Shown piece after piece: positions 36,682 through 56,596 of a stretch of DNA of 64,000 nt. A program made the translations under genes and the position numbers. The DNA is taken from positions 901 through 64,900 of the forward strand of contig JABAZT010000023.1 of NCBI GenBank assembly GCA_018608565.1, written 5' to 3'. The notes beneath the pieces were generated by a model. It was not told where the DNA came from and made no database searches. It worked only from the letters and a program-made list of their open reading frames with translations. Position 1 is the first letter of the stretch. Each line of letters opens with the position of its first letter. The stretch is from Candidatus Altimarinota bacterium. GTDB lineage: Bacteria > Patescibacteriota > Gracilibacteria > UBA4473.

Positions 36682-38415
36682 ATGCAAACAAAAAATAACA
36701 GAACCCGAATACAAATTGCCGGACAAAGTGGGGCGGGACTACTCTCTGTCGGACTTATCATTATTCGAGCGCTGCGAGATCTCGGATTTTATGCGGTAGC
36801 CGATAGAGAATATCCATCCTTGATAAAAGGAGGACACAGTCTTTTTACGATCAATGTCTCAACCGAAAAAATTCATTCACTCTCAAATGTAGCCGATATT
36901 TTTGTCTCAATAGACAAGGTCAGTCTTACGGCTTATTTTGATAGACTTAAAGAAGGCGGAATCTGGATTCACGGATACGAACGACTCGCCGGGATCAAAG
37001 ATCTCCAAGCCAAAGCCAAAGAACGAAACATTACAGAAGTGCATCTTCCGACTCGATCCACCGCAAAATCAGTAGGAGGAAACGATCTCATGCAAAATGT
37101 AGTTTTGATCGGAATGATCTGGAAAGTGTTAGGACTTGAGTTTGCAGATGTAGAAGAAGAAATTACTCATAAATTTGGGAAAAGACCAAAACTTCTTCCC
37201 TTCAACATCGCCGCAGCAAAAGCCGGATACGACGGAGTAGAAACACAGCAAAAACTAGAACTACCAAAAACAAAAGAACGACGAATGATCATCGACGGAA
37301 ATCATGCGATTGCTCTTGGGGCGGTCCACGGAGGTGTACGAGCCTACTATGCCTATCCGATGAGTCCGAGTAGCACAATACTTACTCATATGGCAGATAT
37401 GGCAAAAGAAACAGGAGTTATCGTCAAACAAGGAGAAGACGAAATAACCGTCGCAAACTTGAGTATGGGATCTTGGTATGGAGGAACTCGATCGATGTGT
37501 GGAACCTCTGGGGGAGGATTTGATCTCATGACAGAAACAGTTTCACTTGCCGGAATCATAGAGACTCCTTGGGTTTGTGCGCTAGTACAGAGACCAGGAC
37601 CAGCGACGGGACTTCCGACTTGGACCGGGCAAGGAGATTTGAAACTAGCGATTCATGGCGGACATGGAGAATTTGCTCGGATTGTAGTATCCGTATCAGA
37701 TCCCACAGATGCATTTGATATTACCCAACACGCGCTCAACGCTGCAGAAAAATACCAATGCCCTGTTATTATTCTGAGTGACAAAAATATCGCAGAAAGC
37801 TTGGTGACGGTTCCAGAATTTGAAAAAGGAAAAATAAAGATCGAACGAAGTCTTGTTGAAGGAAAAGAACTAGAAACAATAAAAAGCACTGATCGATATA
37901 AAATCACCGAATCAGGAATTTCCAAGCGATGGATCCCGGGAAGTAATGTCGACGAGTATTACTTCGCTAACGGAGATGAGCATGACGAGATGGGACGACT
38001 CGATGAAAGCGAAGCGGCTGGCGATATGTATGCCAAGCGAGTTCGAAAGCTAGAAACCATCCAATCAGAGCTTCCAGAACCAGATATCTATGGAACAGAA
38101 AAAGACGCGGATATTTCTTTTGTCGGATGGGGAAGTACTAAGGCAACGATTCTAGATATGATTTCTGATTATGCGGAAAAAGGAGTCAAAATAAACTATT
38201 TGCACTACACGTGGGTGCATCCAATACGAACCGAAAAACTCGAACAATTCTTCACAGATAACTGCAACGTCCACCTGATCGAAGGAAACTACAACGGACA
38301 ACTCGGAAAACTCATCGAAAAAGAAACCGATCTCAAGTTCACTGGAAAACTTCTCAAGTGGGATGGGCGACCGTTCTTTTTGGAGGATTTGGAAAATTAC
38401 ATTAATAATAATTAA
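36682..38415 (+). CDS. korA: 2-oxoacid:ferredoxin/flavodoxin oxidoreductase, fused gamma-alpha subunit (KorA-type)
   Basis: Gamma-like 'IQIAGQSGAGLLSVGLIIIRALRDLGFYAVADREYPSLIKGG', then alpha 'DGNHAIALGAVHGGVRAYYAYPMSPSS'. Start taken at ATG 36682. Confidence 0.85.
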   Translation: MQTKNNRTRIQIAGQSGAGLLSVGLIIIRALRDLGFYAVADREYPSLIKGGHSLFTINVSTEKIHSLSNVADIFVSIDKVSLTAYFDRLKEGGIWIHGYERLAGIKDLQAKAKERNITEVHLPTRSTAKSVGGNDLMQNVVLIGMIWKVLGLEFADVEEEITHKFGKRPKLLPFNIAAAKAGYDGVETQQKLELPKTKERRMIIDGNHAIALGAVHGGVRAYYAYPMSPSSTILTHMADMAKETGVIVKQGEDEITVANLSMGSWYGGTRSMCGTSGGGFDLMTETVSLAGIIETPWVCALVQRPGPATGLPTWTGQGDLKLAIHGGHGEFARIVVSVSDPTDAFDITQHALNAAEKYQCPVIILSDKNIAESLVTVPEFEKGKIKIERSLVEGKELETIKSTDRYKITESGISKRWIPGSNVDEYYFANGDEHDEMGRLDESEAAGDMYAKRVRKLETIQSELPEPDIYGTEKDADISFVGWGSTKATILDMISDYAEKGVKINYLHYTWVHPIRTEKLEQFFTDNCNVHLIEGNYNGQLGKLIEKETDLKFTGKLLKWDGRPFFLEDLENYINNN

Positions 38416-38421: not shown

Positions 38422-38841
38422 ATGGAGTCTTTATTGCTGGTACTAATTCCGTTTTGCATAGTGATATTTACTGGGAAGTTTGTATCTGCATATTTCTCAT
38501 CTCCTTCTGTAACAAATTATTGTAATTTTTTTACCTTCATTCTTTCATCTGTACTTTTCTTTATTTATATTTTACTGATTTCTGGAGAATTTGTAAAAAG
38601 CACAAGTATATATAATCCATTGTTTCAATTTTTATTTAGAGACGGAAGTCTTCTCATGGATTCTTTATTACTAATTTCGATAATGGCTTCAGTATTAATT
38701 TTCTTTCGTTTTATTTTTTTAAAACCCAGGAGCAATTTACCAAATTGGATGCGTATTCTATCGATTTTATCTACGGTCGTTATTATATTGTTAACACTGT
38801 TTCTATTTATCATGGCGCTTGCAATGAGTAGTAGTAACTAG
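38422..38841 (+). CDS. Small polytopic membrane protein (hypothetical)
   Basis: 139 aa, about 4 hydrophobic segments, very AT-rich. It lies between korA and korB. Its C-terminal part resembles the ORF at 38990-39193. Confidence 0.5.
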   Translation: MESLLLVLIPFCIVIFTGKFVSAYFSSPSVTNYCNFFTFILSSVLFFIYILLISGEFVKSTSIYNPLFQFLFRDGSLLMDSLLLISIMASVLIFFRFIFLKPRSNLPNWMRILSILSTVVIILLTLFLFIMALAMSSSN

Positions 38842-38989: not shown

Positions 38990-39193
38990 ATGATTCTTTG
39001 GTTATTTTTTACACTTTGTTATTTGCTCCTAAGTTTTGGAGTATATGCTCTTTGGCATATACTAGATGGAGTGTTTACGTTTCCTCGGTGGGCGTATATT
39101 CTAGCTAAAGGTATTTTTATTATATTTCACATCCTCGTGTTTGTTGCAATAATGTATATGATTTTTTTGAGCTATGCGCTCAGTGGACACTAA
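38990..39193 (+). CDS. Small membrane protein (67 aa), apparent paralog of the C-terminal half of the 38422-38841 ORF
   Basis: 'FPRWAYIL...SYALSGH*' vs 'LPNWMRIL...ALAMSSSN*'. Nucleotide blocks 'tgg...attcta', 'attatatt' and 'gcgct.' are shared in the same order. The ATG immediately follows the remnant's stop (TAAATG). Confidence 0.45.
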   Translation: MILWLFFTLCYLLLSFGVYALWHILDGVFTFPRWAYILAKGIFIIFHILVFVAIMYMIFLSYALSGH

Positions 39194-39359: not shown

Positions 39360-40256
39360 ATGACCAATACACAACAAATCGCTTCCGCTGGAATTGCTCA
39401 CCAATACACAGACTATGAAACCGATGAGGTCATGACCTGGTGTGGAGGCTGTGGAAATTATTCTATCCAAAATGCACTAAAACGAGCCCTTTCACTCGAA
39501 GGGATAGATCGAGCCAATGTCATCTTCTGTTTCGACGTAGGATGTAGCGGGAATGGGTCAGACAAGATGGAAGGCTATACGATTCATGGGCTTCACGGTC
39601 GAGTGCTTCCATTGGCCGCCGGAGTCAAGATGGCACAGCATAACACACATGTGATCTGTGAAGCAGGAGATGGAGCGACATTTAGCGAAGGAGCGGGACA
39701 CGTCGTTCACGCCATCAGAAACGACTATCCAGTCCTCTTCATCCATCATGATAACCAAAACTACGGACTTACGACCGGACAGTGCTCTTCTCTAACGCCC
39801 AAAGGCTGCAAGATGAATGCCGCTCCAGAAGGAAACCCAATCGAACCACTCAATCCGCTAGAAGTCGTCTTAAGCCTCAAGCCTTCTTTTGTCGCACGGA
39901 CCTGTTGTGTAGATACAGAGCACATGACTGAAACATTCCAAAAAGCCCTCAATCACAAAGGATTCGCCTTCGTCGAGACATTGCAGTCTTGCCCAACCTA
40001 CAACAAGCACACAACCCACGAATGGTATGTAGAAAACATAAAATTCATCGAAAAAGAATTTCCAGACTACGATCCTACCGATATCTGGCAGGCACGAAAA
40101 CTTGTAGATAATACCGTTCCCTATCTAGGAATGATCTATCATAATCCAAAGCGAGAAAGCTTCCTCGAGTCACTCGCTCACAAAGACAAAAACGATCCTA
40201 TGCTGATCGATGAAGTACAGCAGGTAGATGTAGGAAATTTCATGGCTACATTATAG
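39360..40256 (+). CDS. korB: 2-oxoacid:ferredoxin/flavodoxin oxidoreductase beta subunit (TPP-binding)
   Basis: 'WCGGCGNYSI' and the TPP motif region 'CEAGDGATFSEGAGHVVHAIRND...HHDNQNYGLTTGQ'. Confidence 0.85.
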   Translation: MTNTQQIASAGIAHQYTDYETDEVMTWCGGCGNYSIQNALKRALSLEGIDRANVIFCFDVGCSGNGSDKMEGYTIHGLHGRVLPLAAGVKMAQHNTHVICEAGDGATFSEGAGHVVHAIRNDYPVLFIHHDNQNYGLTTGQCSSLTPKGCKMNAAPEGNPIEPLNPLEVVLSLKPSFVARTCCVDTEHMTETFQKALNHKGFAFVETLQSCPTYNKHTTHEWYVENIKFIEKEFPDYDPTDIWQARKLVDNTVPYLGMIYHNPKRESFLESLAHKDKNDPMLIDEVQQVDVGNFMATL

Positions 40257-43408: not shown

Positions 43409-43483
43409 TCCCGAGTAGCTCAGTGGTAGAGCAGTTGGCTGTTAACCAACTTGTCGTCGGTTCAAATCCGACCTCGGGAGCCA
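43409..43483 (+). tRNA. tRNA-Asn (anticodon GTT), with encoded CCA
   Basis: A full cloverleaf was folded by hand. Acceptor TCCCGAG/CTCGGGA, D-arm GCTC-AGTGGTA-GAGC, anticodon arm GTTGG-CTGTTAA-CCAAC, variable loop TTGTC, T-arm GTCGG-TTCAAAT-CCGAC, discriminator G, CCA. Confidence 0.95.
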
Positions 43484-43492
43484 CACACTTAT

Positions 43493-43514
43493 AGAGCGAG
43501 AATTCGCTCTTTTT
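43493..43514 (+). terminator. Rho-independent terminator after tRNA-Asn
   Basis: AGAGCGA-GAAT-TCGCTCT hairpin followed by TTTT. The T-run overlaps the stop codon of the convergent Fic gene. Confidence 0.65.
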
Positions 43515-44475
43515 AGTTACGCAATAACAACAACACCAACCCAACCATTCGATCCTTATCCTTCGGATCAGACTCCGCGATTAGCAGCGTCAACGCCGTT
43601 AATGCCTCAGGCGTGATTTTATCGGTATTTAGTATTTTTGCTTTAGATAAGAACCACACAAAAGCAAACGCACCAGAACGTTTATTCCCATCATTAAACG
43701 GATGATTTTTGATAATGAAGTAAAGAAGATGAGCAGCTTTTTCTTCGATTGTAGGATAGGCATCTTGACCAAAAGCCGACTGAAACACGCTTCCTACAAT
43801 TCCTCCAAGACTTCCTTGGTTCTTCGCTTGAGCAAAAAGTTCGGTCGCCTCATTCTTTTCTATTAGATTTTCTTTCAGCCCTGCAATTGCAGATTCGAGC
43901 TCTTCTGCTGTGAAGAGTATATCGCTCTTACTTGATCCACTTGCTGGTAACTCAGATTTATCATAGGCATCCAGAGAGAGCCATGTATGAGCAAAGAGAT
44001 TCACTAGATCCAGAACGTCATCGGCTTTGATATTAGCGTTATTCGGCAACAGCTGTTTGGTATCTTCTATAGCTTTGAGAAACGCTTCATGATTTTGAGT
44101 AATTCGAGTAGGATTGATCGTATATCCTTCTACGATATGCGATCGAAGCGTTTGAGTGGCCCATTGTCGAAATTTGGTAGCAGTCTTTGAGTTGACTCGG
44201 TAACCAACAGATATGATAGCATCTAAATTATAGAAATTAGTTTTATATTTCTTCCCATCCTGAGCAGTTGTTTCCAAATTGGAAATAACTGAATTGGCCT
44301 GAAGCTCTTCATCTTGAAAAATATTCTTTAGATGCTTTGCAATAGCGGGAACTTGCACTTCAAAAATTTCAGCCATTTGTTTTTGAGTGGCCCAAATAGT
44401 GTCCGTGCTAGAGTCCTGACGAAGCTCAATTGCTCCAGTTTCTGATCTGTAGATGATAGGTGATTGATCTGTCAT
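43513..44475 (-). CDS. RhuM-family N-terminal domain fused to a Fic/DOC domain
   Basis: RhuM-like 'WATQKQMAEIFEVQVPAIAKHLKNIF...FYNLDAIISVGYRVNSKTATKFRQWATQTL'. C-terminal Fic/Doc motif 'HPFNDGNKRSGAFAF'. Confidence 0.85.
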   Translation of the reverse strand: MTDQSPIIYRSETGAIELRQDSSTDTIWATQKQMAEIFEVQVPAIAKHLKNIFQDEELQANSVISNLETTAQDGKKYKTNFYNLDAIISVGYRVNSKTATKFRQWATQTLRSHIVEGYTINPTRITQNHEAFLKAIEDTKQLLPNNANIKADDVLDLVNLFAHTWLSLDAYDKSELPASGSSKSDILFTAEELESAIAGLKENLIEKNEATELFAQAKNQGSLGGIVGSVFQSAFGQDAYPTIEEKAAHLLYFIIKNHPFNDGNKRSGAFAFVWFLSKAKILNTDKITPEALTALTLLIAESDPKDKDRMVGLVLLLLRN

Positions 44476-44681: not shown

Positions 44682-45389
44682 ATGTGTTGGAGTGCCGGAG
44701 CATCAGCTACTGTAGCCACAGTAGGAATAGTCGCGACTGCTTATGCAATCAAGCAAAAAAAACAAAAACAACTGTGGATTCCGCTCTTATATTTTTCCAT
44801 GATGGAGGCGCTTCAGGCGGTGACATATTTTTATATTGATCAATGTGATAGTCCTCCTAATCAGATATTGACCCTGATGGCATATTTACATATCGCATTT
44901 CAGGGAGTGTTTGTAAACATGCTGACGATGAATTTTATCCCTCAAGAGGTGAAAAGTAAAATTCAAGACTGGGTCTATACGATCTGTTTTATTTGTACGA
45001 TATTATTTTTGATATTGTTATATCCATTTGATTGGGCGGGACAGTGTAAGCCAGGAGTTGATGCTATGTGTGGGCAGATCCTATGTTCTATGCAGGAGAC
45101 GTGGCATATGGGGTGGCACGTACCTATGAATAATATTCCATGGATAGGACCAATTGGATATATGTTCCCATGCATGGTACTTCCATTTATCTATGGAGCG
45201 TGGAGAGTGGGATTGTATCTGCTACTGGCAGGGCCGATTGTTTCCTATGCACTCACTCAAAACATGAATGAATGGCCAGCCGTCTGGTGTATTTTGTCAG
45301 TAGCATTGATTCTCATTGCGATAGGAACTCCACTCCAAAAATACCTAAACAATGAAAACTGGTATGGAATCAAATATCCTTGGAAATAA
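44682..45389 (+). CDS. Cys/Trp-rich polytopic membrane protein (hypothetical)
   Basis: 235 aa, about 6 hydrophobic segments and several Cys ('MCWSAG', 'DQCDSPP', 'GQCKPGVDAMCGQILC'). Family not recognised with confidence. Confidence 0.6.
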   Translation: MCWSAGASATVATVGIVATAYAIKQKKQKQLWIPLLYFSMMEALQAVTYFYIDQCDSPPNQILTLMAYLHIAFQGVFVNMLTMNFIPQEVKSKIQDWVYTICFICTILFLILLYPFDWAGQCKPGVDAMCGQILCSMQETWHMGWHVPMNNIPWIGPIGYMFPCMVLPFIYGAWRVGLYLLLAGPIVSYALTQNMNEWPAVWCILSVALILIAIGTPLQKYLNNENWYGIKYPWK

Positions 45390-45532
45390 ACGAAGAGAGG
45401 TTAAAAATTTGGAATAAAAAGAAACTACTACTTATTCTGCCATCAGCACGAGTTGGTAGTTTCTCTGTCTACAATAAGATTGACAATTGGTATGGAAACA
45501 TTTAAAAGGTTGTAAAAAATTAATTTAAAAAG

Positions 45533-46876
45533 ATGAAATTAAAAATACATCCAGAACTATCAGAAGCCGTCGGGGAAAGAAAAAAGGCATTAGAAAAAGA
45601 TATCAAAGGATGGTGGAAAATTGAATTAAATGGAAAAAATAAATTTGGGAATCAAGCACAATCATTTGCAGATACATGGATGGAGACTCATATTGATGGA
45701 TTATTTGAGATCGAAGAGGAAGAAACAGATGAAGGCGTAAACCTATTTGTATCTATAGAAGAAGAACTAATCGGTCAATTCCTTGGGAAGTTATACGAAC
45801 TCGATCAAGCAGAGACAGATATACAAAAAGCAGAAAGAAACGAATCAGTCCAAATTAATAGAAGTGCTAAGCGATTTCATACAATAGCAGAAATTGATGC
45901 CTATGTGACAGAGAAACAACAGGAATTAGAGGAAGAAAAAAAGAGAGCCGTAACAGGACGAAGAAAAGCCGGAGAAGAACGGAACTCTGCGGAAATAGAA
46001 AAAGAGTTAGAAGCTTTTGCTGATGAAGCCATTCATGTCGTTAAGGAGGAACTCGTAGTAAAACAAACTAAAACACAGGAGGCACGACAATGGCTACAAG
46101 TTATTAAACGAAAAGATATATCGCAGTTCGATCTTTCAGATCCTTCTGCTGCGAAGATTCAGGCAGTATTGGACGGTTTTGCTCAGAAATTTGAAGTATC
46201 CGTGATAAAGATGAAGCCAGTCAGAGAGATACAGGAAGGGAAAAAGAAAACATCAAATGTAAAAATAAGGGTAGCGATGGTAGCAGCAGCAACAGTGGCG
46301 ATGGGAGGAGGAATTGTATATATGAACCAAGGGGATGAAATTTCAGCGGAAGATGATCATCGTTCAACTAAATTAGTAGCCGAGTATCCACCCTATCTAG
46401 AGAGTGATCCAGTGATTATTGTGCCAGGAGGATTTATCCGCGTAGGGGGAACATTGAGTTATGAGGAGAAGGTACGTTTCATGAAAGAATTAGCTGAAAT
46501 TTTAACAGCCGACGATATTGATCCAGAAAGAATTATGAAAGATATAGAGATACAAAAAATAAGAGATACAAAATTTGAGACAACTTATTTGAAGCAAAGA
46601 CAAGAACAAATCATCACCGCCATAGATGCAGATCTGGGTATGGATGAGCTTCATAAACTTGGATATTATCTCTTGGATGATATTGCGTTTATCGATAGAA
46701 AGTCAGAAAAAATAATAAAAACATTGTCAGCTGATGAGGCATTTATGAATTCATCTGACATTGGAAAAAGAATGGTTCGTATCAGTGAGGAATCTGATCG
46801 TGAACAATGTGAAGGAGAGCTCTATAGAGAAATAGGATTTCGAGTGATGAATTACTTCAATCCTAAAAACCAATAA
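45533..46876 (+). CDS. Coiled-coil single-pass membrane protein, paralog 1 of 3 (hypothetical)
   Basis: 447 aa. Shares the N-terminal motif series with the next two ORFs ('DTWMETHIDGLF', 'AKRFHTIAEIDAY', basic patch 'KKRAVTGRRKAGEE'). One TM at aa 245-264 'IRVAMVAAATVAMGGGIVYM'. Confidence 0.75.
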   Translation: MKLKIHPELSEAVGERKKALEKDIKGWWKIELNGKNKFGNQAQSFADTWMETHIDGLFEIEEEETDEGVNLFVSIEEELIGQFLGKLYELDQAETDIQKAERNESVQINRSAKRFHTIAEIDAYVTEKQQELEEEKKRAVTGRRKAGEERNSAEIEKELEAFADEAIHVVKEELVVKQTKTQEARQWLQVIKRKDISQFDLSDPSAAKIQAVLDGFAQKFEVSVIKMKPVREIQEGKKKTSNVKIRVAMVAAATVAMGGGIVYMNQGDEISAEDDHRSTKLVAEYPPYLESDPVIIVPGGFIRVGGTLSYEEKVRFMKELAEILTADDIDPERIMKDIEIQKIRDTKFETTYLKQRQEQIITAIDADLGMDELHKLGYYLLDDIAFIDRKSEKIIKTLSADEAFMNSSDIGKRMVRISEESDREQCEGELYREIGFRVMNYFNPKNQ

Positions 46877-46893
46877 TTACCTAAATCTACCAA

Positions 46894-48540
46894 ATGTCAG
46901 CCGAAAAAGTAAAACAACTCATATCCTCCGTAGAAGAACAGATTGAATCTATGGAGTTGAGCCAAAAAGCGGATGTGAAGAAATATCTACAAAGAGAAAT
47001 CATAAAGCAGACAAATGCGGGAACTAAAACAAAACAATTTGTAGAAGACTGGTTTGTAGACGAGGGGGAAAGACTCTTTGTTGATAGTCTAATCACAGAA
47101 GATTTCGATAATGAATCTGCGACACTAGAACTACAGTATGACCAAGAAGTATTGGCGGAATTTCTAAACCAAGTAGAACAACTCTCTCAAGCCGAGTCAG
47201 AACATGTATCAGCACAATCTAAGAGAAAAGAAGGAGTAACAGTAAAGCTGGCGAGTAGATTTAAATCTATTGAAGAAGCTACAACTCACAAAGATAAAAA
47301 ACTTCCTGAGGTTGAAGGGGAGATTATAGAAGCTAAAAGACTCAAAGGAGATAAAAGAAAGAACGCGCTTGCAAGATTAGAGGCAGAAAAAACCGTGTTG
47401 AAGGGATTAGTGAAAACAGTTGGAGGAAAACTACAAAAGCTAGATCAGTCGTTAGAAGCCGCAGCAGTAAAATTAGAACAAGCTTTAGCAGGAGAGCTAG
47501 AAGAGGATACAGAATTATTAGCTGCAGATTTTATCACCAAGCTTGAACGAAAATTTCCTAAAACAGAGGTGCAGGCTCGTTATCGAGAGATAACCGCAGC
47601 AGAAAAATCTGAAATAGAAGGAACGCTTCAAAAATATATAAAAAATAGATCGGTTCGAGTTTCAGTGGTATTAGTAGCTACTGGGTTAACGATTTTAGGG
47701 TTAGTGCAGTTGTTTAAAAAAGAAGATCCATCTCCAATTCCAGTTCCAGAAAGATCAGGGAATCCGGGAGGATATGCTCTAAGAAGAAATTATGGATTGG
47801 AATCCGGGCGTCAGAAACTAATGGTTCATTATGATCGGGGGGCAAATGTATTATCACTATCGAGACAACTACCTCCTGTGGAGTTAGAAGGAATCAAGCA
47901 GCATATGGCAAAAAAAGAGAAATATTTTAAGCATGATGCTAGAGTCGAAGTAATATCCGAGGTAGAAATAGCTTTAAAATTAAGAAAACCAGATCCTATT
48001 ATTATAAGACAGCTAGGGATGATACAAGGTCAGTTCAAGAGTGCCTCTTTAAATCAAAAAAATAAGAGACTTCTCGAGTTATATAGAGAATCTGGTGGGC
48101 AGAACATAAGCCTAAATAAAGAACTAAAGGATTGGCTCGAGAAAGTTGCCGAACTCGCGGCACTAATAGAGAAAATCTCTAATAAGTTGAAGACCCGAGA
48201 TTATGCGAACGATAGTGAGGTAGTACTAGCTGTCAGTCAGGAAATGATGCAATGGTATGATAAATTAAATACAGAAGAACTTAGTGAGGCTCGTACACAG
48301 GTTCTTATGGAAATTCTAGAGTATCGGAGAATTCCAAAGCCAGCAATGCCACTTCCAGCTGAAATTCGAATAAATGCAGACAAACTAAAGCCTGGAGAAT
48401 TTGCGATAATTAATGCGTATACAAACGCAATGACACTGATTCCACCTTATTTCAATGAAAGAGAAAGACAGGTATTTATCAATAACTATAAACTAACGGT
48501 TTCAGATGCATATGTAGTGATAGAGGGACACGCTAAATAA
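46894..48540 (+). CDS. Coiled-coil single-pass membrane protein, paralog 2 of 3 (hypothetical)
   Basis: 548 aa. 'EDWFVDEGERLF', 'ASRFKSIEEATTH', basic patch 'KRLKGDKRKNA'. TM at aa 254-274 'VRVSVVLVATGLTILGLVQLF'. 17-nt gap to paralog 1. Confidence 0.75.
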   Translation: MSAEKVKQLISSVEEQIESMELSQKADVKKYLQREIIKQTNAGTKTKQFVEDWFVDEGERLFVDSLITEDFDNESATLELQYDQEVLAEFLNQVEQLSQAESEHVSAQSKRKEGVTVKLASRFKSIEEATTHKDKKLPEVEGEIIEAKRLKGDKRKNALARLEAEKTVLKGLVKTVGGKLQKLDQSLEAAAVKLEQALAGELEEDTELLAADFITKLERKFPKTEVQARYREITAAEKSEIEGTLQKYIKNRSVRVSVVLVATGLTILGLVQLFKKEDPSPIPVPERSGNPGGYALRRNYGLESGRQKLMVHYDRGANVLSLSRQLPPVELEGIKQHMAKKEKYFKHDARVEVISEVEIALKLRKPDPIIIRQLGMIQGQFKSASLNQKNKRLLELYRESGGQNISLNKELKDWLEKVAELAALIEKISNKLKTRDYANDSEVVLAVSQEMMQWYDKLNTEELSEARTQVLMEILEYRRIPKPAMPLPAEIRINADKLKPGEFAIINAYTNAMTLIPPYFNERERQVFINNYKLTVSDAYVVIEGHAK

Positions 48541-48551
48541 AGAATTAAAAG

Positions 48552-49790
48552 ATGAAAAGAAGAATCGTAGACCCCGAACATGTGGCTGAACCAGAAGCGC
48601 CAGTATTGGAGCTTCCAAAACATCTCCAAGTCATTTGGGATGTGGTGCGGATTCATGAATTCCGAATAGATCCAATAAGGATCTGGCATACAATACCTAT
48701 AAAGCAAAGAATTAGGGCCGCCCTTAGTACTCAGGGAGAGGAGAGGGAGATAGAGGTGAATGCACAGATAGAATCACTATGTGAAGCCGGAAAGACAAAA
48801 CTTATAGGGAAAATAAAAAAACATTTTAGTGATCAGGTTTCAACGTCAGTCATAAATTGGATAGAGCAACAATCCATACAAAATTTATTTGTAACTACTT
48901 TGGATGTTCAGGAGGGAGTAGATGATAGAATCCCGGGATTGGCGGCACTAGGAATCGATCTAGAGATGAATATGCCAGTGAATCTAGTTATAATGCAGGC
49001 AGTATACCTCGAACAAATGGAGCTTTATATCAAAGAAGAAAAAGGAAAATTTGGAGCCGTAAAAATAAGAAATAAACAATTTAGTTCGATGGAGGCATTT
49101 TATACAGAAAAAAAGCGACTTGAAGTCGAATTAGCGCAGCTAAATGATAGAAAAAAAAGAAGACAAACAGTGCGAAAAAAAGGATCAAAAGGGGATTTAG
49201 ATCGAGAGATAGCAAAAGCAGAGGGGCAGATTTCAGCACTTGGAGCCGATGCTGACTGGGAAGAAGAATTTAAAAAATCAGAATCACTGCAGGAAAAGAT
49301 TCGAGTTTTTGAGGTTGATCTCAAAAGAAATTTACAGGTATTAGAGTCAGGGGTTCTAACTCAAATATTACTAGATAACCCTCCAAAATCAGAAAAAGAT
49401 ATGTTGAGATTTCAGCAGATTTTTGATAATGGAGTTGCAACTGCATACGCATTGCCCGTCGAGTGTTTTGAGGGATTTACCGAGGAACAAGCGTTGTCAC
49501 AAAAAATGAGCGCAATAAGTGTGTCTATTGAGAAAAAAATAGAACAGCATAGAGATCTAAAGCAAATTTTTGAAATGATTGAAGATCTTAATGTGGAGAG
49601 GGGGAAGCGATACGATGCTATGAAGTTTTGGCTCTATATTCATATAATAAAACTAGCATCATTATTAATACTAACATATTCGTTGCCTACCGATACAGAG
49701 GAGGACGATAATACTGGGGATGATTCCAGTCCAGCTAGTATCGAAAGTGTAGAGGGGGTATCACAAGAGTCATCGGTGCTCGAAGAGTAA
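48552..49790 (+). CDS. Coiled-coil membrane protein, paralog 3 of 3 (hypothetical; TM near the C-terminus, acidic tail)
   Basis: 412 aa. 'INWIEQQSIQNLF', 'NKQFSSMEAFYTE', basic patch 'RKKRRQTVRKKGSKGD'. TM at aa 358-378 'FWLYIHIIKLASLLILTYSL'. 11-nt gap to paralog 2. Confidence 0.7.
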   Translation: MKRRIVDPEHVAEPEAPVLELPKHLQVIWDVVRIHEFRIDPIRIWHTIPIKQRIRAALSTQGEEREIEVNAQIESLCEAGKTKLIGKIKKHFSDQVSTSVINWIEQQSIQNLFVTTLDVQEGVDDRIPGLAALGIDLEMNMPVNLVIMQAVYLEQMELYIKEEKGKFGAVKIRNKQFSSMEAFYTEKKRLEVELAQLNDRKKRRQTVRKKGSKGDLDREIAKAEGQISALGADADWEEEFKKSESLQEKIRVFEVDLKRNLQVLESGVLTQILLDNPPKSEKDMLRFQQIFDNGVATAYALPVECFEGFTEEQALSQKMSAISVSIEKKIEQHRDLKQIFEMIEDLNVERGKRYDAMKFWLYIHIIKLASLLILTYSLPTDTEEDDNTGDDSSPASIESVEGVSQESSVLEE

Positions 49791-51107: not shown

Positions 51108-52808
51108 ATGACAAAGCAGAATAAGAAAATCATTATCAGTCTCGCACTCATACTCTTCTTGGGACTTCTTGTCCGAAGTGTTCTACAAAATAAAAAACCA
51201 AAAGAGGAGGAATTCCTTGAAACAACGGTACAAACAATAGAGGCCGAAACACTGGTATATGGTAACTGGACGCCAGAAGGGAATAGATCAGTTTTAGTTA
51301 CCGTGGAGTCTGACGCTGAGGTTGAAATCAGTGCAGAACTTTCTGGAACTATCGCAAAAGTATATGCAAAAACAGGAGATATTGTTCGGTCTGGTCAAGT
51401 ACTAGCAGAATTTTCTCAATCCTTTGATCAAACGCAGATAAACTATCAAAACACACTGTCGGCTCTAGAAGTAGCAAAAGCCTCAGCTCAAAACTCTGTT
51501 CAGTCCTCACAGATTGGACTGGATACAGCAAGAGTCTCACTTCAACAAGCAAAAGCAACCGAAAGCCAAGGACTTGTTCAAACGTTTGATGGACTTCGTG
51601 CACAAGCAAAAAATACAGAAGCCTCATTTCAGTCAGCGCTAGATTTGCTCGATCAATGGGTCGGATATTCACCACAGTATCGATTTGTATCCGTAAATAG
51701 AGATCCACTAAAGAAAAGAGATTCTGTCCTATTTAATGCACTTTATAAGTCCACTGGAGATCTTTTAAAGCAGCTTCCCAACCTTCCAACTGATCCATAT
51801 GGAGGAGAGAAGGAGCAAGTACTGCGATATGCTGCGTATAGGATTGATTTTGCGACAAAATTACAAGATACATTACTCCAATTTGAAAATCTCGCACAAA
51901 GAGCAATTCTTAGTAGTGCTTTTCCCAAATCTCAAGCAGACAGTCTAGTTACTCTTATTAGATCCCAAAAAAATGGAGTTAACGGAGAAGTAATTGCTCT
52001 CAATAGTTCTTTTGAAAATGCGAGAACCGCATCAGAGCGAAAAAATAGTTCACTCTTAACCGCAGAAAACCAAGTCAAAAGTGCAGAAGCTAATCTTCAG
52101 TTAGCACGAGCAAACGCAGATTCTCAGATTCGTTCAGCTCAAAATCAAGTAAATTCGGCCTATGCTTCAAAATTAGATCTAGTAGTACGAGCTCCATTTG
52201 AGGGGGAAGTTTCACAAAAATTTATAAATGTAGGGCAACAAGTAAGTCCAGGAACTCAGCTCTTTAATGTTATAAACCCAAATAAAAGAAAAAAACTCAT
52301 CGCTTTTCTCACCTTTCCAGAATATCAACGCCTCCAAGCGCAAGAGTCAGTAGAAGTAATTCTTGATGGACAGAATTTTGCCGTCGAGGTTTCTGGTGCT
52401 ACAGCTCGTCTCGATGCTGAAAGTCAAAAAATGAGAGTCGAATTTATCTTGGATCAATCGCAAGAATCAGAAGTACTCGTAGGACAGGTTGGGAAATTAC
52501 AACTACTCAAAGCAAGTATCAAAACGAATGTATTACCATTGTCAGCTATTTCTTTTGAGCCAGATGGTGCAGAAGTATTGATAGTAAATAAAGAAGGGGT
52601 TACGGAGCGAAAAAAAATAATCGTTGGAACACTAGTATCTAATGCACTAGAAATACAAGCAGGGATCGATCCAGGAACACCAGTGATCAAATATAGATCA
52701 AGAACCTATGCAGGGCAGAAGATAAAAATAGATCCAATTATCAAAAACGACGAATCAGAAACTGAAAAAACTATAACTGATAATGCCCAATTAGATGTTA
52801 TCAAGTAA
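51108..52808 (+). CDS. Efflux transporter periplasmic adaptor subunit (HlyD/MFP family), long form
   Basis: N-terminal TM 'IIISLALILFLGLLV', lipoyl-like 'EISAELSGTIAKVYAKTGDIVRSGQVLAEF' paired with 'LVVRAPFEGEVSQKFINVGQQVSPGTQLFNVINP', and a long Q/A/S-rich hairpin between them. Confidence 0.8.
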   Translation: MTKQNKKIIISLALILFLGLLVRSVLQNKKPKEEEFLETTVQTIEAETLVYGNWTPEGNRSVLVTVESDAEVEISAELSGTIAKVYAKTGDIVRSGQVLAEFSQSFDQTQINYQNTLSALEVAKASAQNSVQSSQIGLDTARVSLQQAKATESQGLVQTFDGLRAQAKNTEASFQSALDLLDQWVGYSPQYRFVSVNRDPLKKRDSVLFNALYKSTGDLLKQLPNLPTDPYGGEKEQVLRYAAYRIDFATKLQDTLLQFENLAQRAILSSAFPKSQADSLVTLIRSQKNGVNGEVIALNSSFENARTASERKNSSLLTAENQVKSAEANLQLARANADSQIRSAQNQVNSAYASKLDLVVRAPFEGEVSQKFINVGQQVSPGTQLFNVINPNKRKKLIAFLTFPEYQRLQAQESVEVILDGQNFAVEVSGATARLDAESQKMRVEFILDQSQESEVLVGQVGKLQLLKASIKTNVLPLSAISFEPDGAEVLIVNKEGVTERKKIIVGTLVSNALEIQAGIDPGTPVIKYRSRTYAGQKIKIDPIIKNDESETEKTITDNAQLDVIK

Positions 52809-53394
52809 TTTCAAAGGGTTTACATCAGAACAGGAAGAAGTGATAAGCGCACAATTTTTTGGAAACCAATTGTACTTAAAAATTAAGGATGAAGATGATA
52901 GTTCTGATAAGAACCAAACAGTTCTAGGGGCTCGTTATCAGGATAGAATAGGAGCTGACGGGGGACGTGTTCGTGAGTTTGAGTTTCCATTTTGCGAATG
53001 GGCAGAATATCATCTCATTGCATCAATTGTAAGAGGATCATCCATTATAAGAGAAGAGGCGGAAGATATTTTAGAAGTTTTTGATAAGAATAGGGGAAGA
53101 AGCGAAGTTTTAATACGAAGTAGTATAGAGCAGCAGTATAAAGGGCAGACGTTTTTAGTAACCGATAAAAACAGTTTGTACTATGGTTTTATATTAAAAG
53201 TTATAGATATCGATGAACGGAGTGGGGAAACGAGATTGAGTTTGGGAAGAGCTATAGATACACAAAGACTCAACGAAGTTTTTTCTGAGTTAGAGATTTA
53301 TTTTAAGAATGATTCAGAAAAAATTTTGGCACTCATGGGATTGCGAGAGCATCCACTAATTAAAAATTTATTAAATAAAAATGAAACAAGATAA
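52795..53394 (+). CDS. Hypothetical soluble protein embedded in the efflux operon
   Basis: 199-aa ORF that overlaps the adaptor stop by 14 nt and the pump start by 14 nt. It has no TM segment or signal peptide and no family recognised. Confidence 0.55.
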   Translation: MLSSNFKGFTSEQEEVISAQFFGNQLYLKIKDEDDSSDKNQTVLGARYQDRIGADGGRVREFEFPFCEWAEYHLIASIVRGSSIIREEAEDILEVFDKNRGRSEVLIRSSIEQQYKGQTFLVTDKNSLYYGFILKVIDIDERSGETRLSLGRAIDTQRLNEVFSELEIYFKNDSEKILALMGLREHPLIKNLLNKNETR

Positions 53395-56300
53395 TAAACT
53401 CGGTCTTCTTTGGACGTTTCTTCTTGAGCGAGGAAGAGTTGCCTTACTTTTAGCTATACTTGCTATGGCTTGGGGATTCTCAGCGTATAAGTCTATGCCA
53501 CGAGAGAGTAGTCCAGAGGTAGAAATTCCAGTAGGAATTATCAGTACCGTTTGGCCAGGGGCTTCGAGTGTCGACGTAGAAAAGCTTGTGACTGAAAAAA
53601 TAGAAAGAGAAGTCAAAACACTTGAAAATGTAGAAAGATATACTTCGACATCACGAGCAGGGCTCTCAATTGTTTCTGTGGAGTTTGAGGTTGGAACCAA
53701 TATGGATCAGAATATGCAAAAGCTCAGGGAGGCCCTGGATGATGCAGAACGAAGTCTGCCTGACACACTTCCTGATGATCCAGATCTAACAGAAGCAAGT
53801 GCCAGTGCGATTCCAATACTGACCCTTAACATATCAGGAGATTTTTCACTATCAGAGCTCAAGCGATTTGCGGAAACATTTCAAGATGAGTTCGAAGGGA
53901 TTCAAGGAGTAAAAGAAGTCTTAATTTCAGGGCTCCCAGAAGAAGAAATTCATCTATATATAGATCCTATAAGTCTTCAGAAGTACGGACTCTCAGTCGA
54001 ACAAGTAGCTCAAAAAATAAATCAGTCTCATCAAGATTTACCACTGGGGCAAATATTCCTAGATGGAGAAAAGCTTGATCTCAGAGTAGAAGGAGAGTTG
54101 GAATCAATATCCGATTTCTTTGAACTCCCAATAATGAAAAAGGGGGCCCAAATAGTGACTCTTGGGGAGATCGTCGAGATTCGTCGAGAATTTGATACCT
54201 TGAACGTCGAGACATATTCTTCTACAGGCGGGAAACTGCAGACATCATTGAGTCTGGATTTAATAAAAAGTGAAGCGAAGACCAATGTCGCAAAAGCAGT
54301 AACTGCTGCACTAAAAACAATTGAAGATTATCGAGAAAAACAGCTTATTCCTGATTCTCTTGATGTGAATATTGTTTACAACAGTGCCGACGATATACAG
54401 AAAGATCTAAATAATCTGATTGTCACTGGAACACAGACACTTGTTTTGATTACGATCATTCTCTTTTTTGCACTTGGATGGAGGGAGTCTTTACTGGCTT
54501 TTATTTCAATCCCGCTCTCTATGTTTATTGCTATAGGGATGCTTCAGCTGTTAGGAGAAACCTTTAATTTCTTGTCATTATTTTCATTGATTCTCGCGGT
54601 AGGGTTGCTCGTCGACAACGCCATTATTGTGGTGGAGGGGATTTCAGAAAATATTTTCTATGGAAAGAAAAAACCAATTGACGCTGCAAAAAGTGCACTA
54701 GAGACATTTAGATGGCCAATTATAACAGGGACTTGTACAACAATCTTTGCATTTCTTCCTATGATGTTCCTTATTTCAGGAGTATCGGGACAGTATGTCA
54801 GTGTGATTCCGAAAACCGTTATGGTGGTACTGATTTCATCATTAGTAGTATCTCTTTTCTTAGTTCCCGTATTTGGAGTCGCATTTTTCACATTTTTTCC
54901 ACCAAAACCACATACAGAAGGAACGCTCCTGACCAAGGTAAAAGAATGGTACGAACCTTTTATGAGGGGAATTCTATATTCGTCTAAAAAATTATTTATC
55001 ACATTGGGGTTGTCATTTCTAACCCTTGTTTTTGCCATTGGTCTAATGGTAACAGGACAAATACCGGTTGAAATATTTCCAGGAGGAGATGAAAACTTTT
55101 TTACCGCCAAAATAGAGCTTCCAAAAGGAACAAAATTAAGAGAAACAAGGGAATTACTTCCAGAAATAGAACAAGGCCTACTTCCCTTATTTGAGGAAGA
55201 CTCAAAAGGAAAAGGAAATTTTAAAAATATGGTGGTAACGGTTGGACAAGTTTCAAGTTATGATCCAGAAGCACTTCAGGGGAGTGGGATAAGCCCAGAA
55301 GAAGAGGTTATAGGAATTACATTTAATCTTAAACCCAAAAAAGATAGAATCATTTCGTCAGAAGCAGCAGCGGACTTGGTAGAAAAAACCCTAAGACCAT
55401 TGATTCCTTCATATGCAGACCTGAGTATGGGGAAACTAGAGGGCGGGCCTCCATCTGGTTCATCTGCAATTGAGATTCGACTTGTGAGTGATGATTTGGA
55501 GCACTTAGAATTGGTGACGGATGATTTACGTGCCAAACTTGAATCTATGAGTCTCAAGAGTGGTGGAAAACTCATCGACATAACAGATAATAGGGGGGAG
55601 GTTTTGCCACAGATTACTTGGAAGATTGATCGATTGAAGCTTGAGAATGTAGGACTCACTATAAGTCAGATGAGTCAGACCTTACGTTCTGCAATTGAAG
55701 GAGTGAGGGTACTTCAAATTTCAGACGGAGAAGATGAAATTGATGTGGTATTAAGACTTAATTTTTCAGAAGAACTTAAGTGGAAAGGTCCAGAATCACT
55801 TGAAATTCTTTCTCAGATCCCAATCAAGACTCAATCGGGGAAATTTATTCAGCTAAGCGATGTAGCCGAGTTTCAGATTGGGCCACAGCGTTCTATCGTA
55901 CGACATAGAGATGGAAAAAGAACCGTGACTGTTGGTGCTAATATAGAAGGGAAAAAGGTCACAGCCTCTCAATTTCAGGCTAAATTAGAAGAAGCGATAG
56001 CCTCTCTCGATAAATGGCCGGGGGATAGTTTTCAGATCGGGGGAGATAATGAGGAAGGAAGCCGTCTTATTACCGAGATGATTAGTGCAATGATATTTGC
56101 CGCATTTTTGATTGGGATGGTTCTGGTATTACAGTTCAATTCATTCTCTCAGCCAATTATTATCCTTTCTGCAATTCCATTATCATTGACGGCGGTTTTG
56201 ATTGGTTTTTGGATTTCACAGACGCCGATATCATTCCCAACATTGATTGGGATTGTGGCACTTGCCGGAATTATTGTAAATGATGATATTGTTCTTATTG

Positions 56301-56596
56301 ACCGGATAAATCATCATCGTCGTCGAACAGAAAACTATGAAGATGCACTTATCGAAGGATGTAAGGCGCGAATGCAGCCAATATTTCTTACATCCATAAC
56401 AACCGTAGTTGGGCTGCTTCCGTTGGCACTTTCAGATCCCGTTTGGCGAGGTCTTGGGTTTGCAGTGATTTATGGGATGAGTCTTTCCACGGTACTCACA
56501 TTATTAGTAACACCGTGTATTCTATTAGTGATGAGATATTTTCAGCGATGGATAGGGAAAAAGATCAGAATTCTTTTTAGAAAAACAGAGAATTGA
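53381..56596 (+). CDS. RND superfamily efflux permease (AcrB/AcrD/AcrF family)
   Basis: 1071 aa with the 12-TM, two-large-loop architecture. 'LSLFSLILAVGLLVDNAIIVVEGI' (TM4 region with the conserved D) and its duplicate 'GIVALAGIIVNDDIVLID'. Confidence 0.9.
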   Translation: MKQDNKLGLLWTFLLERGRVALLLAILAMAWGFSAYKSMPRESSPEVEIPVGIISTVWPGASSVDVEKLVTEKIEREVKTLENVERYTSTSRAGLSIVSVEFEVGTNMDQNMQKLREALDDAERSLPDTLPDDPDLTEASASAIPILTLNISGDFSLSELKRFAETFQDEFEGIQGVKEVLISGLPEEEIHLYIDPISLQKYGLSVEQVAQKINQSHQDLPLGQIFLDGEKLDLRVEGELESISDFFELPIMKKGAQIVTLGEIVEIRREFDTLNVETYSSTGGKLQTSLSLDLIKSEAKTNVAKAVTAALKTIEDYREKQLIPDSLDVNIVYNSADDIQKDLNNLIVTGTQTLVLITIILFFALGWRESLLAFISIPLSMFIAIGMLQLLGETFNFLSLFSLILAVGLLVDNAIIVVEGISENIFYGKKKPIDAAKSALETFRWPIITGTCTTIFAFLPMMFLISGVSGQYVSVIPKTVMVVLISSLVVSLFLVPVFGVAFFTFFPPKPHTEGTLLTKVKEWYEPFMRGILYSSKKLFITLGLSFLTLVFAIGLMVTGQIPVEIFPGGDENFFTAKIELPKGTKLRETRELLPEIEQGLLPLFEEDSKGKGNFKNMVVTVGQVSSYDPEALQGSGISPEEEVIGITFNLKPKKDRIISSEAAADLVEKTLRPLIPSYADLSMGKLEGGPPSGSSAIEIRLVSDDLEHLELVTDDLRAKLESMSLKSGGKLIDITDNRGEVLPQITWKIDRLKLENVGLTISQMSQTLRSAIEGVRVLQISDGEDEIDVVLRLNFSEELKWKGPESLEILSQIPIKTQSGKFIQLSDVAEFQIGPQRSIVRHRDGKRTVTVGANIEGKKVTASQFQAKLEEAIASLDKWPGDSFQIGGDNEEGSRLITEMISAMIFAAFLIGMVLVLQFNSFSQPIIILSAIPLSLTAVLIGFWISQTPISFPTLIGIVALAGIIVNDDIVLIDRINHHRRRTENYEDALIEGCKARMQPIFLTSITTVVGLLPLALSDPVWRGLGFAVIYGMSLSTVLTLLVTPCILLVMRYFQRWIGKKIRILFRKTEN

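What the first reader, a model, noticed from the sequence alone, without database searches (positions are those of the whole stretch)
45533..49790. Operon of three diverged paralogs: coiled-coil, basic-patch, single-pass membrane proteins of no recognisable family
Three same-strand ORFs of 447, 548 and 412 aa are separated by only 17 and 11 nt. Hand alignment shows the same ordered motif series in each:
- W-[MFI]-x(4-6)-LF: 'DTWMETHIDGLF' / 'EDWFVDEGERLF' / 'INWIEQQSIQNLF'.
- An amphipathic stretch: 'LIGQFLGKLYELDQAE' / 'VLAEFLNQVEQLSQAE' / 'LVIMQAVYLEQMELY'.
- 'VQINRSAKRFHTIAEIDAY' / 'VTVKLASRFKSIEEATTH' / 'AVKIRNKQFSSMEAFYTE'.
- A Lys/Arg patch: 'KKRAVTGRRKAGEE' / 'KRLKGDKRKNA' / 'RKKRRQTVRKKGSKGD'.
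- A long E/K/Q/L-rich, presumably coiled-coil, region.
- Exactly one hydrophobic helix.

Paralogs 1 and 2 even share 'N-x-x-[IV]-R-V-[AS]-[MV]-V' at the entry to the helix. No paralog has a signal peptide, so an N-in topology with a large cytoplasmic coiled coil is expected. Paralogs 1 and 2 add 180-270-aa extracytoplasmic domains. Paralog 3 ends in an acidic tail.

I cannot place the proteins in any named family. The cluster follows tRNA-Asn, a RhuM-Fic gene and a Cys-rich membrane protein. This looks like a lineage-specific hetero-oligomeric envelope-spanning assembly, and it is my best candidate for an undescribed system here.
Basis: partly seen in the sequence, partly recalled or inferred. 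Interest (0 to 1): 0.7.

Follow-up and report, generated by a model that had tools for sequence, protein, structure and literature searches.

The report
Orphan trio of single-pass membrane proteins
Three adjacent genes in an uncultivated Peribacteria-like (CPR) bacterium encode helical, probably single-pass membrane proteins with no detectable relative in any public collection searched; two are clear paralogs, the third is probably one, and their function is unknown.

Summary
All the listed motifs are present.

P1 and P2 are firm paralogs (BLASTP E=1e-8; shuffle z about 11). Their similarity covers the N-domain and the entry to the membrane helix. P3 matches only P1 (E=0.005; z 4.5-7). It does not match P2 or a P1+P2 profile, so it is a probable paralog, not a proven one.

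Each protein has one hydrophobic segment with more K/R before it than after, and none has a signal peptide. An N-in single-pass topology is therefore likely. The segments of P1 and P3 are only marginally hydrophobic.

No known family matches. I searched Pfam, NCBIfam, PHROGs, PADLOC and PDB sequences. I also searched 5.8 billion protein clusters, an exhaustive profile scan of 1.84 billion representatives, and phage, plasmid, viral, genome and metagenome collections. Only the three proteins themselves were found.

AlphaFold models are poor (pLDDT 45) and Foldseek gives only generic long-helix noise.

Codon usage is native. The lineage is thinly sampled, and neither flanking gene keeps this neighbourhood in relatives.

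This is a genuine orphan family of an ordinary architectural type. Interest is modest.

The parts
45420..45464 (+). Hairpin (11 + 7 bp stem) in the 143-nt gap between the DUF5765 gene and P1. It has no U-tract and may mark the end of the upstream transcript.
   Evidence: RNA fold. The whole leader is not more stable than its shuffles (z -0.8). Rfam finds nothing here.
45480..45485 (+). TTGACA hexamer 48 nt upstream of the P1 start. It is a candidate -35 box, but the -10 is poor (TAAAAG).
   Evidence: Read from the sequence. The consensus scan did not list it. Inference only.
45533..46876 (+). P1 gene, 447 aa.
   Evidence: ORF list. Native codon usage. Finds only itself in 5.8 billion clusters.
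45533..45928 (+). P1 acidic N-domain (aa 1-132, pI 4.7), carrying W49 and L57-F58, the 'LIGQFLGKLYELDQAE' helix and the 'VQINRSAKRFHTI' motif.
   Evidence: AF2 gives helix-helix-hairpin-helix at pLDDT 55-68.
45938..45979 (+). P1 Lys/Arg patch KKRAVTGRRKAGEE (aa 136-149), at the start of a basic helical stretch (aa 133-244, pI 9.1).
46265..46321 (+). P1 hydrophobic helix, aa 245-263 (IRVAMVAAATVAMGGGIVY). It is Ala/Gly-rich and only marginally hydrophobic (KD 1.63). K/R count is 5 before and 1 after.
46322..46873 (+). P1 C-terminal domain (aa 264-447, pI 4.6), presumed to lie outside the cytoplasm.
   Evidence: Predicted mostly helical at pLDDT below 50.
46894..48540 (+). P2 gene, 548 aa.
   Evidence: Finds only itself.
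46894..47313 (+). P2 acidic N-domain (aa 1-140, pI 4.8), homologous to the P1 N-domain.
   Evidence: BLASTP E=1e-8; z=11.5.
47335..47367 (+). P2 Lys/Arg patch KRLKGDKRKNA (aa 148-158).
47659..47715 (+). P2 transmembrane helix, aa 256-274 (VSVVLVATGLTILGLVQLF, KD 2.24). The preceding motif N-x-x-V-R-V-S-V-V..A-T is shared with P1.
47716..48537 (+). P2 C-terminal domain (aa 275-548, pI 9.2). It begins with a Pro/Gly-rich linker (DPSPIPVPERSGNPGG).
   Evidence: Not similar to the P1 C-terminal domain. Low-confidence, mostly helical model.
48552..49790 (+). P3 gene, 412 aa. It is a probable, more diverged paralog with a 50-aa N-terminal extension.
   Evidence: BLASTP against P1 gives E=0.005. Shuffle tests. 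Negative profile tests.
49149..49196 (+). P3 Lys/Arg patch RKKRRQTVRKKGSKGD (aa 200-215).
49623..49685 (+). P3 hydrophobic helix, aa about 358-378 (KFWLYIHIIKLASLLILTYSL). It contains K and H, is marginally hydrophobic (KD 1.65), and sits like a tail anchor.
49686..49787 (+). P3 acidic C-terminal tail (34 aa, net charge -12).

Best explanation
What it is: the three genes are resident, lineage-restricted genes of a Peribacteria/Peregrinibacteria-type CPR bacterium, arranged as one probable operon. They arose by tandem duplication. That is firm for P1 and P2 and probable for P3.

Shared layout: each protein has an acidic cytoplasmic N-domain of about 130 aa, then a Lys/Arg patch, then a helical stalk of about 100 aa, then one hydrophobic helix. 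After the helix the proteins differ: 184 aa (acidic) in P1, 274 aa (basic, starting with a Pro/Gly linker) in P2, and a 34-aa acidic tail in P3.

Shown: the genes are real, they have no detectable relatives, P1 and P2 are paralogs, and the charge distribution fits an N-in orientation.

Inferred mechanism: the proteins insert N-in without a signal peptide. They associate with each other through the homologous cytoplasmic N-domains and stalks and through the small-residue (Ala/Gly/Thr) membrane helices. This would give a membrane-anchored scaffold. Its conserved cytoplasmic face, including the basic patch lying against anionic lipid or nucleic acid, would be coupled to divergent surface-exposed domains.

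In a cell without an outer membrane, such a complex would be a cell-surface or cell-envelope organiser or receptor. It would not be a trans-envelope machine.
For: - Gene structure and tight spacing; no + strand terminator inside the cluster.
- Native GC3 and synonymous codon use: -0.99 to -1.07 against a reference of -1.04 +/- 0.04.
- P1-P2 homology, including the motif at the entry to the membrane helix.
- P1-P3 similarity at p of about 0.002-0.005.
- A single hydrophobic peak per protein, no N-terminal signal, and K/R counts before versus after the helix of 5/1, 4/3 and 3/0.
- The same charge pattern in P1 and P2: N-domain pI 4.7-4.8, stalk pI 9.1.
- Long helices in the AF2 models.
- No relative in any library or collection searched.
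- The host lineage was identified from the neighbouring methyltransferase gene.
Against: - Nothing here tests any interaction between the proteins.
- The hydrophobic segments of P1 and P3 are at the threshold for membrane insertion, and no dedicated topology predictor was available.
- Both structure models are unreliable (pLDDT 45).
- P3 fails the profile tests.
- With no orthologs there is no evidence of conservation, covariation or selection.
- Operon status is inferred from spacing alone.
- Because the family is a singleton, even a role in core physiology is doubtful.
Confidence: 0.45

Rival explanations
1. The paralogs act independently. Each would be a membrane-anchored surface receptor, sensor or adhesin on its own. 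They would have been duplicated and diversified in their outer domains (for example under pressure from hosts or phages) while sharing a common cytoplasmic domain, and would not form one complex.
For: - The parts after the membrane helix differ completely in length, charge and sequence, whereas the cytoplasmic N-domain is the conserved part.
- Tandem arrays of this kind commonly reflect diversification. That is general knowledge and was not tested here.
Against: - P3 has no outer domain at all, only an acidic 34-aa tail, so it cannot be a receptor on its own.
- The very tight spacing of 17 and 11 nt suggests co-expression.
Confidence: 0.25
2. The genes are leftover cargo of a mobile element or prophage inserted beside tRNA-Asn together with the RhuM-Fic gene. 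They might act in superinfection exclusion, lysis or membrane defence, and would not be host-lineage genes.
For: - The cluster lies 2 kb downstream of tRNA-Asn and next to a RhuM/Bro-N-Fic fusion.
- It is absent next to the same methyltransferase in L001, L003, L004 and L005.
- A singleton distribution is typical of accessory genes.
Against: - No att-like repeat of the tRNA end was found, and no integrase or phage genes are nearby.
- There are no hits in PHROGs, PADLOC, phage records, plasmids or IMG/VR.
- Codon usage and GC3 are native.
- The relatives are only 49-54% identical and share no gene order on either side, so absence there says little.
Confidence: 0.12
3. It is a three-component membrane-inserting toxin or effector set. 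The model would be the tripartite alpha-pore-forming toxins of the ClyA superfamily (AhlABC, SmhABC, Nhe, Hbl), made as soluble proteins and inserted into a host-cell membrane by this episymbiont.
For: - There are three diverged helical paralogs in one operon, each with one hydrophobic stretch and no signal peptide.
- The hydrophobic stretches of P1 and P3 are marginal: Ala/Gly-rich in P1 and Leu/Ile-rich in P3. PMC6602965 describes the C-component heads as Leu/Ile-rich and separates Ala/Gly from the other hydrophobic residues of the AhlB head.
- Foldseek lists AhlC, but at E=0.84-1.0, which is not significant.
Against: - Pfam gives no HBL or ClyA-type hit even at E up to 1.
- In ClyA-family proteins the hydrophobic head sits between two long helices, and the B component has two adjacent membrane-length segments (PMC6602965). 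Here each protein has a single segment of about 20 aa.
- That segment is followed by a Pro/Gly-rich non-helical linker in P1 and P2 and by only 34 acidic residues in P3.
- The flanking charges follow the positive-inside rule.
Confidence: 0.05
4. P3 is not a paralog at all. Its resemblance to P1 would come from composition (E/K/Q/L-rich helices), and the family would have only two members plus an unrelated tail-anchored protein.
For: - P2-P3 is not significant.
- The P1+P2 profile fails to detect P3.
- The motifs were selected by eye.
Against: - P1-P3 gives BLASTP E=0.005 with composition adjustment.
- None of 1000 global or window-preserving shuffles reaches the real score.
- The best P2-P3 local alignment, though not significant, lines up the same W...LF and QF/RF motifs in the same order.
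- P3 is adjacent and has the same order of parts.
Confidence: 0.2

Closest known systems
N-in single-pass scaffold or sensor proteins with a cytoplasmic N-domain, one membrane helix and an outer C-domain (for example MapZ, RodZ, EssB/YukC, GspL, ToxR-type regulators). This comparison rests on my own knowledge of these families.
   Same: P1 and P2 have the same order of parts and similar sizes: about 245-255 cytoplasmic residues, one membrane helix, and 180-270 residues outside. They have no signal peptide and follow the positive-inside rule.
   Different: No sequence or profile match to any of them in Pfam, NCBIfam or PDB. No partner genes are nearby: no division genes, secretion ATPase or pilins. 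The N-domain here is acidic and helical, not an HTH, actin-like or pseudokinase fold, as far as a low-confidence model can show.
Tandem paralogous single-pass proteins that pair through coiled coils (PilN/PilO, GspL/GspM, FtsB/FtsL). This comparison rests on my own knowledge.
   Same: Adjacent, diverged paralogs, each with one membrane helix and helical segments. The known examples do form hetero-oligomers.
   Different: In those families the membrane helix is near the N-terminus and the coiled coil lies outside the cytoplasm. Here the long helical part comes before the membrane helix, on the side inferred to be cytoplasmic. No Pfam hit and no pilus or secretion genes in the neighbourhood.
Tripartite alpha-pore-forming toxins of the ClyA superfamily (AhlABC, SmhABC, Nhe, Hbl; PMC6602965).
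   Same: Three very diverged helical paralogs in one operon, each with a hydrophobic stretch. The Gram-negative examples were likewise recognised from gene neighbourhood and hydropathy patterns rather than sequence identity.
   Different: There is no hydrophobic hairpin head flanked by long helices and no two-segment B component. P3's hydrophobic helix is nearly C-terminal. A Pro/Gly linker follows the helix in P1 and P2. There is no Pfam hit and no significant Foldseek hit.
Tail-anchored coiled-coil proteins (SNARE-like layout), compared with P3 only. This comparison rests on my own knowledge.
   Same: A long helical cytoplasmic part is followed by one hydrophobic helix about 35 residues from the C-terminus.
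   Different: No SNARE motif or family hit. The hydrophobic helix contains Lys and His. The 34-aa acidic tail is longer than a typical tail-anchor lumenal end.

Membership tests
   The best Pfam E-values are 0.01-0.9, all far below the gathering scores, and none belongs to these families. NCBIfam gives nothing. PHROGs gives E of 0.026 or worse, all of unknown function. PDB sequence and profile searches give nothing relevant. Foldseek tape-measure hits have TM below 0.2.
Tripartite alpha-PFT (ClyA superfamily) | Three components encoded together in one operon | tested here: met
   Three co-oriented genes with gaps of 17 and 11 nt. The feature is described in PMC6602965.
Tripartite alpha-PFT (ClyA superfamily) | A hydrophobic head placed between two long helices (alpha3 and alpha4). 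The B component has two adjacent membrane-length hydrophobic segments. | tested here: not met
   Each protein has one segment of about 19-23 aa. It is followed by a Pro/Gly-rich coil in P1 and P2 or by a 34-aa tail in P3. The feature is taken from PMC6602965.
Tripartite alpha-PFT (ClyA superfamily) | A ClyA-like fold, or a sequence match to the HBL, Nhe or ClyA models | tested here: inconclusive
   There is no Pfam match. Foldseek lists AhlC at E=0.84-1.0, but the models have pLDDT 45, so the fold cannot be judged.
Tripartite alpha-PFT (ClyA superfamily) | Lytic or pore-forming activity that needs the combined components | not testable with these tools
   This needs recombinant proteins and a membrane or erythrocyte assay.
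PilN/PilO and GspL/GspM alignment-complex proteins | An N-terminal membrane helix with an extracytoplasmic coiled coil and a ferredoxin-like domain; genes embedded in a pilus or type II secretion cluster | tested here: not met
   The membrane helices start at aa 245, 256 and 356. There are no PilN, PilO, T2SSL or T2SSM Pfam hits. The neighbours are tRNA-Asn, Fic, DUF5765, a methyltransferase and an RND pump.
Known anti-phage defence systems (PADLOC-DB) | A match to a defence-protein model | tested here: not met
   The only hit is a 12.8-bit, E=0.016 match of P3 to a Cas2 model over 37 residues. P1 and P2 have none.
N-in single-pass membrane protein (an architectural class, not a homologous family) | No signal peptide, a single membrane helix, and more K/R on the N-terminal flank | tested here: met
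   One KD peak each, no N-terminal peak, and K/R before versus after of 5/1, 4/3 and 3/0. The peaks of P1 and P3 are marginal (1.63 and 1.65), and no dedicated predictor was available.
Conserved DUF5765-linked operon | The trio, or look-alike genes, next to DUF5765 in other genomes | tested here: not met
   DUF5765 relatives at 74%, 54% and 49% identity are followed by a PurT-like gene, a polytopic 397-aa protein and an MFS transporter. None matches the trio.

The most novel reading that the evidence does not exclude
The trio could be a previously unseen three-component membrane apparatus of an episymbiotic CPR bacterium. One version is a heteromeric cell-surface or division scaffold that replaces missing canonical components. 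Another is a new, non-ClyA three-part membrane-inserting system used on host cells. In either version, homologs in sister lineages would have diverged beyond sequence recognition.
Probability: 0.1. Interest if true: 0.6.

Novelty: new variant of a known kind. Interest (0 to 1): 0.3.

Why it matters
If the three proteins do form a defined complex, they would add a lineage-specific membrane module to the poorly understood cell envelope of CPR/Peregrinibacteria cells. In these organisms most surface and division components are unknown.

As it stands, the locus mainly shows how thinly this lineage is sampled. A native three-gene paralog cluster has no detectable relative among about 15 billion public proteins.

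The family is a singleton from an uncultivated organism, so it opens no long-standing question to direct test. Its practical value is as a flagged target for when closer genomes, metatranscriptomes or better structure prediction become available.

Tried and rejected
- Curated libraries: Pfam, NCBIfam, PHROGs and PADLOC gave nothing.
- PDB: single-sequence and profile searches gave nothing.
- Word-indexed search of 5.8 billion clusters with P1 and P2: each found only itself.
- Exhaustive hmmsearch of 1.84 billion representatives with the three-paralog profile: only the trio itself.
- GTDB genome scan with the paralog alignment, JGI metagenome scan with P2, IMG/VR scan, and tblastn against phages and plasmids: nothing.
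- Exact-sequence contig look-up for P1: not on record.
- Synteny through the adjacent methyltransferase: the relatives are only 49-54% identical and have different neighbours.
- Synteny through DUF5765: the neighbours vary and none resembles the trio. The z=6.9 between P2 and the L011 397-aa protein is hydrophobic-segment matching to a polytopic protein, so I rejected it.
- AF2 on P1 and P2 with the three-sequence alignment: pLDDT 45. The Foldseek hits to PDB and BFVD (F-BAR, LSD1 tower, Vipp1, tape measures, AhlC) all have TM of 0.2 or less or E above 0.1. I rejected them as generic long-helix matches.
- Island test: no att-like repeat of tRNA-Asn and no composition or codon anomaly.
- RNA element in the P1 leader: no Rfam hit, and the fold is no better than its shuffles.
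- A fourth paralog in the window or in the related loci: none.

Full report
**1. The observation**

The window carries three + strand ORFs at 45533-46876 (P1, 447 aa), 46894-48540 (P2, 548 aa) and 48552-49790 (P3, 412 aa). They are separated by 17 and 11 nt. Each ATG is the first start codon after the preceding in-frame stop, so the N-termini are well defined.

Each protein has exactly one Kyte-Doolittle peak above 1.5:
- P1 aa 245-263, score 1.63, Ala/Gly-rich.
- P2 aa 256-274, score 2.24.
- P3 aa 356-378, score 1.65, containing K and H.

None has an N-terminal hydrophobic stretch.

**2. Is the paralogy more than chance?**

P1-P2 is solid:
- BLASTP gives E=1e-8 over aa 23-153 against 27-158.
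- Smith-Waterman z is 11 against global shuffles. For the N-domain alone it is 11.5, and 8.4 with 20-aa window shuffles that preserve local composition.
- The two also share the entry to the membrane helix, N-x-x-[IV]-R-V-[AS]-[MV]-V-x-x-A-T.
- Their C-terminal halves are not detectably similar.

P1-P3 is modest:
- BLASTP gives E=0.005 over 251 columns.
- For the region before the helix, z is 7 (global) or 4.5 (window shuffles), with 0 of 1000 shuffles reaching the real score.
- For the N-domain alone, z is 3.9, with 4 of 1000.

P2-P3 is not significant. A P1+P2 profile does not detect P3: HMMER gives 93 of 1000 shuffles at or above the real score, and hhalign gives probability 0.2%. The other two leave-one-out profiles do beat all 1000 shuffles.

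So there are two firm paralogs. Adjacency, the same order of parts and the P1 link make the third a probable one. I put that at about 0.8.

**3. Are the genes native, and whose are they?**

GC, GC3 and synonymous codon choice of P1-P3 lie inside the range of 15 housekeeping genes in the window. I found no att-like repeat of the tRNA end, no integrase and no composition break.

The rest of the window is ordinary chromosome. It includes RuvA, an M50 protease, L25, DprA, MscS, UvrC, PBP1, AspRS, riboflavin genes, POR/OFOR, AdoHcy hydrolase, a PfkB kinase, GAPDH and an HlyD-AcrB pump.

The convergent neighbour, a UPF0020-type methyltransferase, finds its best relatives in MAGs labelled Candidatus Peribacteria and 'Gracilibacteria'. 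Identity is only 49-54%. The lineage is therefore thinly sampled.

None of 37 gene starts has a Shine-Dalgarno core. The lack of one before P1-P3 is normal for this genome.

**4. Operon status**

This is inferred. The evidence is the tight spacing, the shared strand and the absence of a + strand terminator-like site inside the cluster.

The 143-nt leader before P1 holds a hairpin at 45420-45464 and a TTGACA at 45480-45485. The leader as a whole folds no better than its shuffles, and Rfam finds nothing there. Whether DUF5765 is co-transcribed remains open. There is no conserved linkage between DUF5765 and the trio. DUF5765 relatives at 74%, 54% and 49% identity have quite different downstream genes, and none resembles the trio.

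**5. Search for relatives and known families**

- Curated libraries: no hit near threshold in Pfam, NCBIfam, PHROGs or PADLOC.
- PDB: nothing by sequence or by profile.
- Word-indexed search of 5.8 billion clusters: P1 and P2 each find only themselves.
- Exhaustive HMMER scan of 1.84 billion representatives with a profile of the shared region (N-domain, stalk and membrane helix): exactly three proteins, the trio itself.
- Nothing in the GTDB species genomes, JGI metagenome contigs, IMG/VR, phage records or plasmids.
- No fourth copy in the window or in any fetched locus.

**6. Structure**

I ran AF2 with the three-sequence alignment. Mean pLDDT was 45 for both P1 and P2. Only the P1 N-domain (helix, helix, hairpin, helix) and the long helices reached 55-70.

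Foldseek against PDB gave a best E of 0.55 for P1 and 0.18 for P2. All matches were generic antiparallel helical hairpins such as F-BAR, the LSD1 tower, Vipp1 and PI3K iSH2. Against BFVD the best E was 9.6e-4, but with TM 0.16 and rmsd 41 A. None of this can be used for assignment.

**7. What the sequence itself says**

P1 and P2 share a charge plan:
- An acidic N-domain, pI 4.7-4.8.
- A Lys/Arg patch that opens a basic helical stretch, pI 9.1.
- The hydrophobic helix.

After the helix come an acidic 184-aa domain in P1 and a basic 274-aa domain in P2. The P2 domain opens with a Pro/Gly-rich linker. P3 ends in a 34-aa tail with net charge -12.

K/R counts in the 15 residues before and after the helix are 5/1, 4/3 and 3/0. 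This fits the positive-inside rule for an N-in orientation. The helices of P1 and P2 are rich in small residues (AAATVAMGGG; ATGLTILG). That is compatible with helix-helix packing, but it is inference only.

**8. Most likely explanation**

The trio is a lineage-restricted tandem paralog set of N-in single-pass membrane proteins. The conserved cytoplasmic N-domain, stalk and membrane helix are the common module, and the outer parts have diverged.

The most economical mechanism is a membrane-anchored hetero-oligomeric scaffold, assembled through the homologous cytoplasmic and membrane parts. P3 would be a tail-anchored subunit without an ectodomain.

I give this about 0.45. The descriptive part (real, native, orphan, P1 and P2 paralogs) I put at about 0.9. 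The assembly part is untested. 'Envelope-spanning' is not supported, because the outer parts are short and carry no recognisable wall-binding or outer-layer domain.

**9. Rivals**

- Independent diversified receptors or sensors (0.25). This fits the divergent outer domains but not the domain-less P3.
- Cargo of a decayed mobile element next to tRNA-Asn and Fic (0.12). The position and singleton distribution fit. Native codon usage and the absence of any phage, defence or integrase signal argue against it.
- A tripartite membrane-inserting toxin on the ClyA model (0.05). The layout looks superficially similar. However, the defining hydrophobic head between two long helices and the two-segment B component (PMC6602965) are not met, and there is no family match.
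- P3 is not a paralog (0.2). This is a sub-question and can hold alongside any of the above.

**10. Novelty and interest**

At the sequence level this is an undescribed family with no detectable relatives. At the level of kind, it is a common architecture, and orphan membrane or helical proteins are frequent in CPR genomes. I have no evidence for a new mechanism.

I therefore rate it a new variant of a known architectural kind, with interest 0.3. The most novel reading not excluded is a new three-component membrane apparatus of an episymbiont. I give that about 0.1 probability.

Noticed in passing
whole window (37 gene starts): None of 37 gene starts has a GGAG, GAGG or AGGA core in the 20 nt upstream, and the leaders are A/T-rich. 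This genome seems to start translation without Shine-Dalgarno pairing.
   Followed up: partly
window 22745-25123 (-): The UvrC homolog (792 aa) carries a GNAT acetyltransferase domain at about aa 524-619, and the UvrC RNase H endonuclease domain is matched in two stretches. This is an unusual fusion or insertion.
   Followed up: no
window 4427-8614 (+), 16638-20654 (-), 11577-13436 (+): Three large ORFs (1395, 1338 and 619 aa) have no Pfam match at E up to 1e-5. They are further lineage-specific proteins in the same window.
   Followed up: no
window 38422-38841 and 38990-39193 (+): Two small, very hydrophobic ORFs (139 and 67 aa) sit between the POR/OFOR alpha-type (36598-38415) and beta-type (39360-40256) subunit genes.
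   Followed up: no
window 52795-53394 (+): A 199-aa ORF with no Pfam hit overlaps the end of the HlyD-like adaptor gene (51108-52808) and the start of the AcrB-like pump gene (53381-56596). It may be a third pump component.
   Followed up: no
window 43409-44475: A RhuM/Bro-N plus Fic fusion gene (minus strand) ends 30 nt after tRNA-Asn. No att-like repeat and no integrase were found.
   Followed up: partly
window 58292-60382 (-): A 696-aa protein has a phosphoribulokinase/uridine kinase domain only at aa 405-585. The N-terminal 400 aa have no match.
   Followed up: no
window 46-1206 (+); L001 13790-16267 (-); L003 14268-17123 (-): A TraG/VirD4-like coupling-protein fragment lies at the window edge. 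The related Peribacteria loci carry 825-951-aa P-loop proteins that look similar. I did not compare them.
   Followed up: no
window 44682-45389 (+): The Cys-rich DUF5765 membrane protein has 424 relatives across Proteobacteria, Peregrinibacteria and a Nanoarchaeota MAG. Its gene neighbours vary, and no paper in the library mentions the family.
   Followed up: partly
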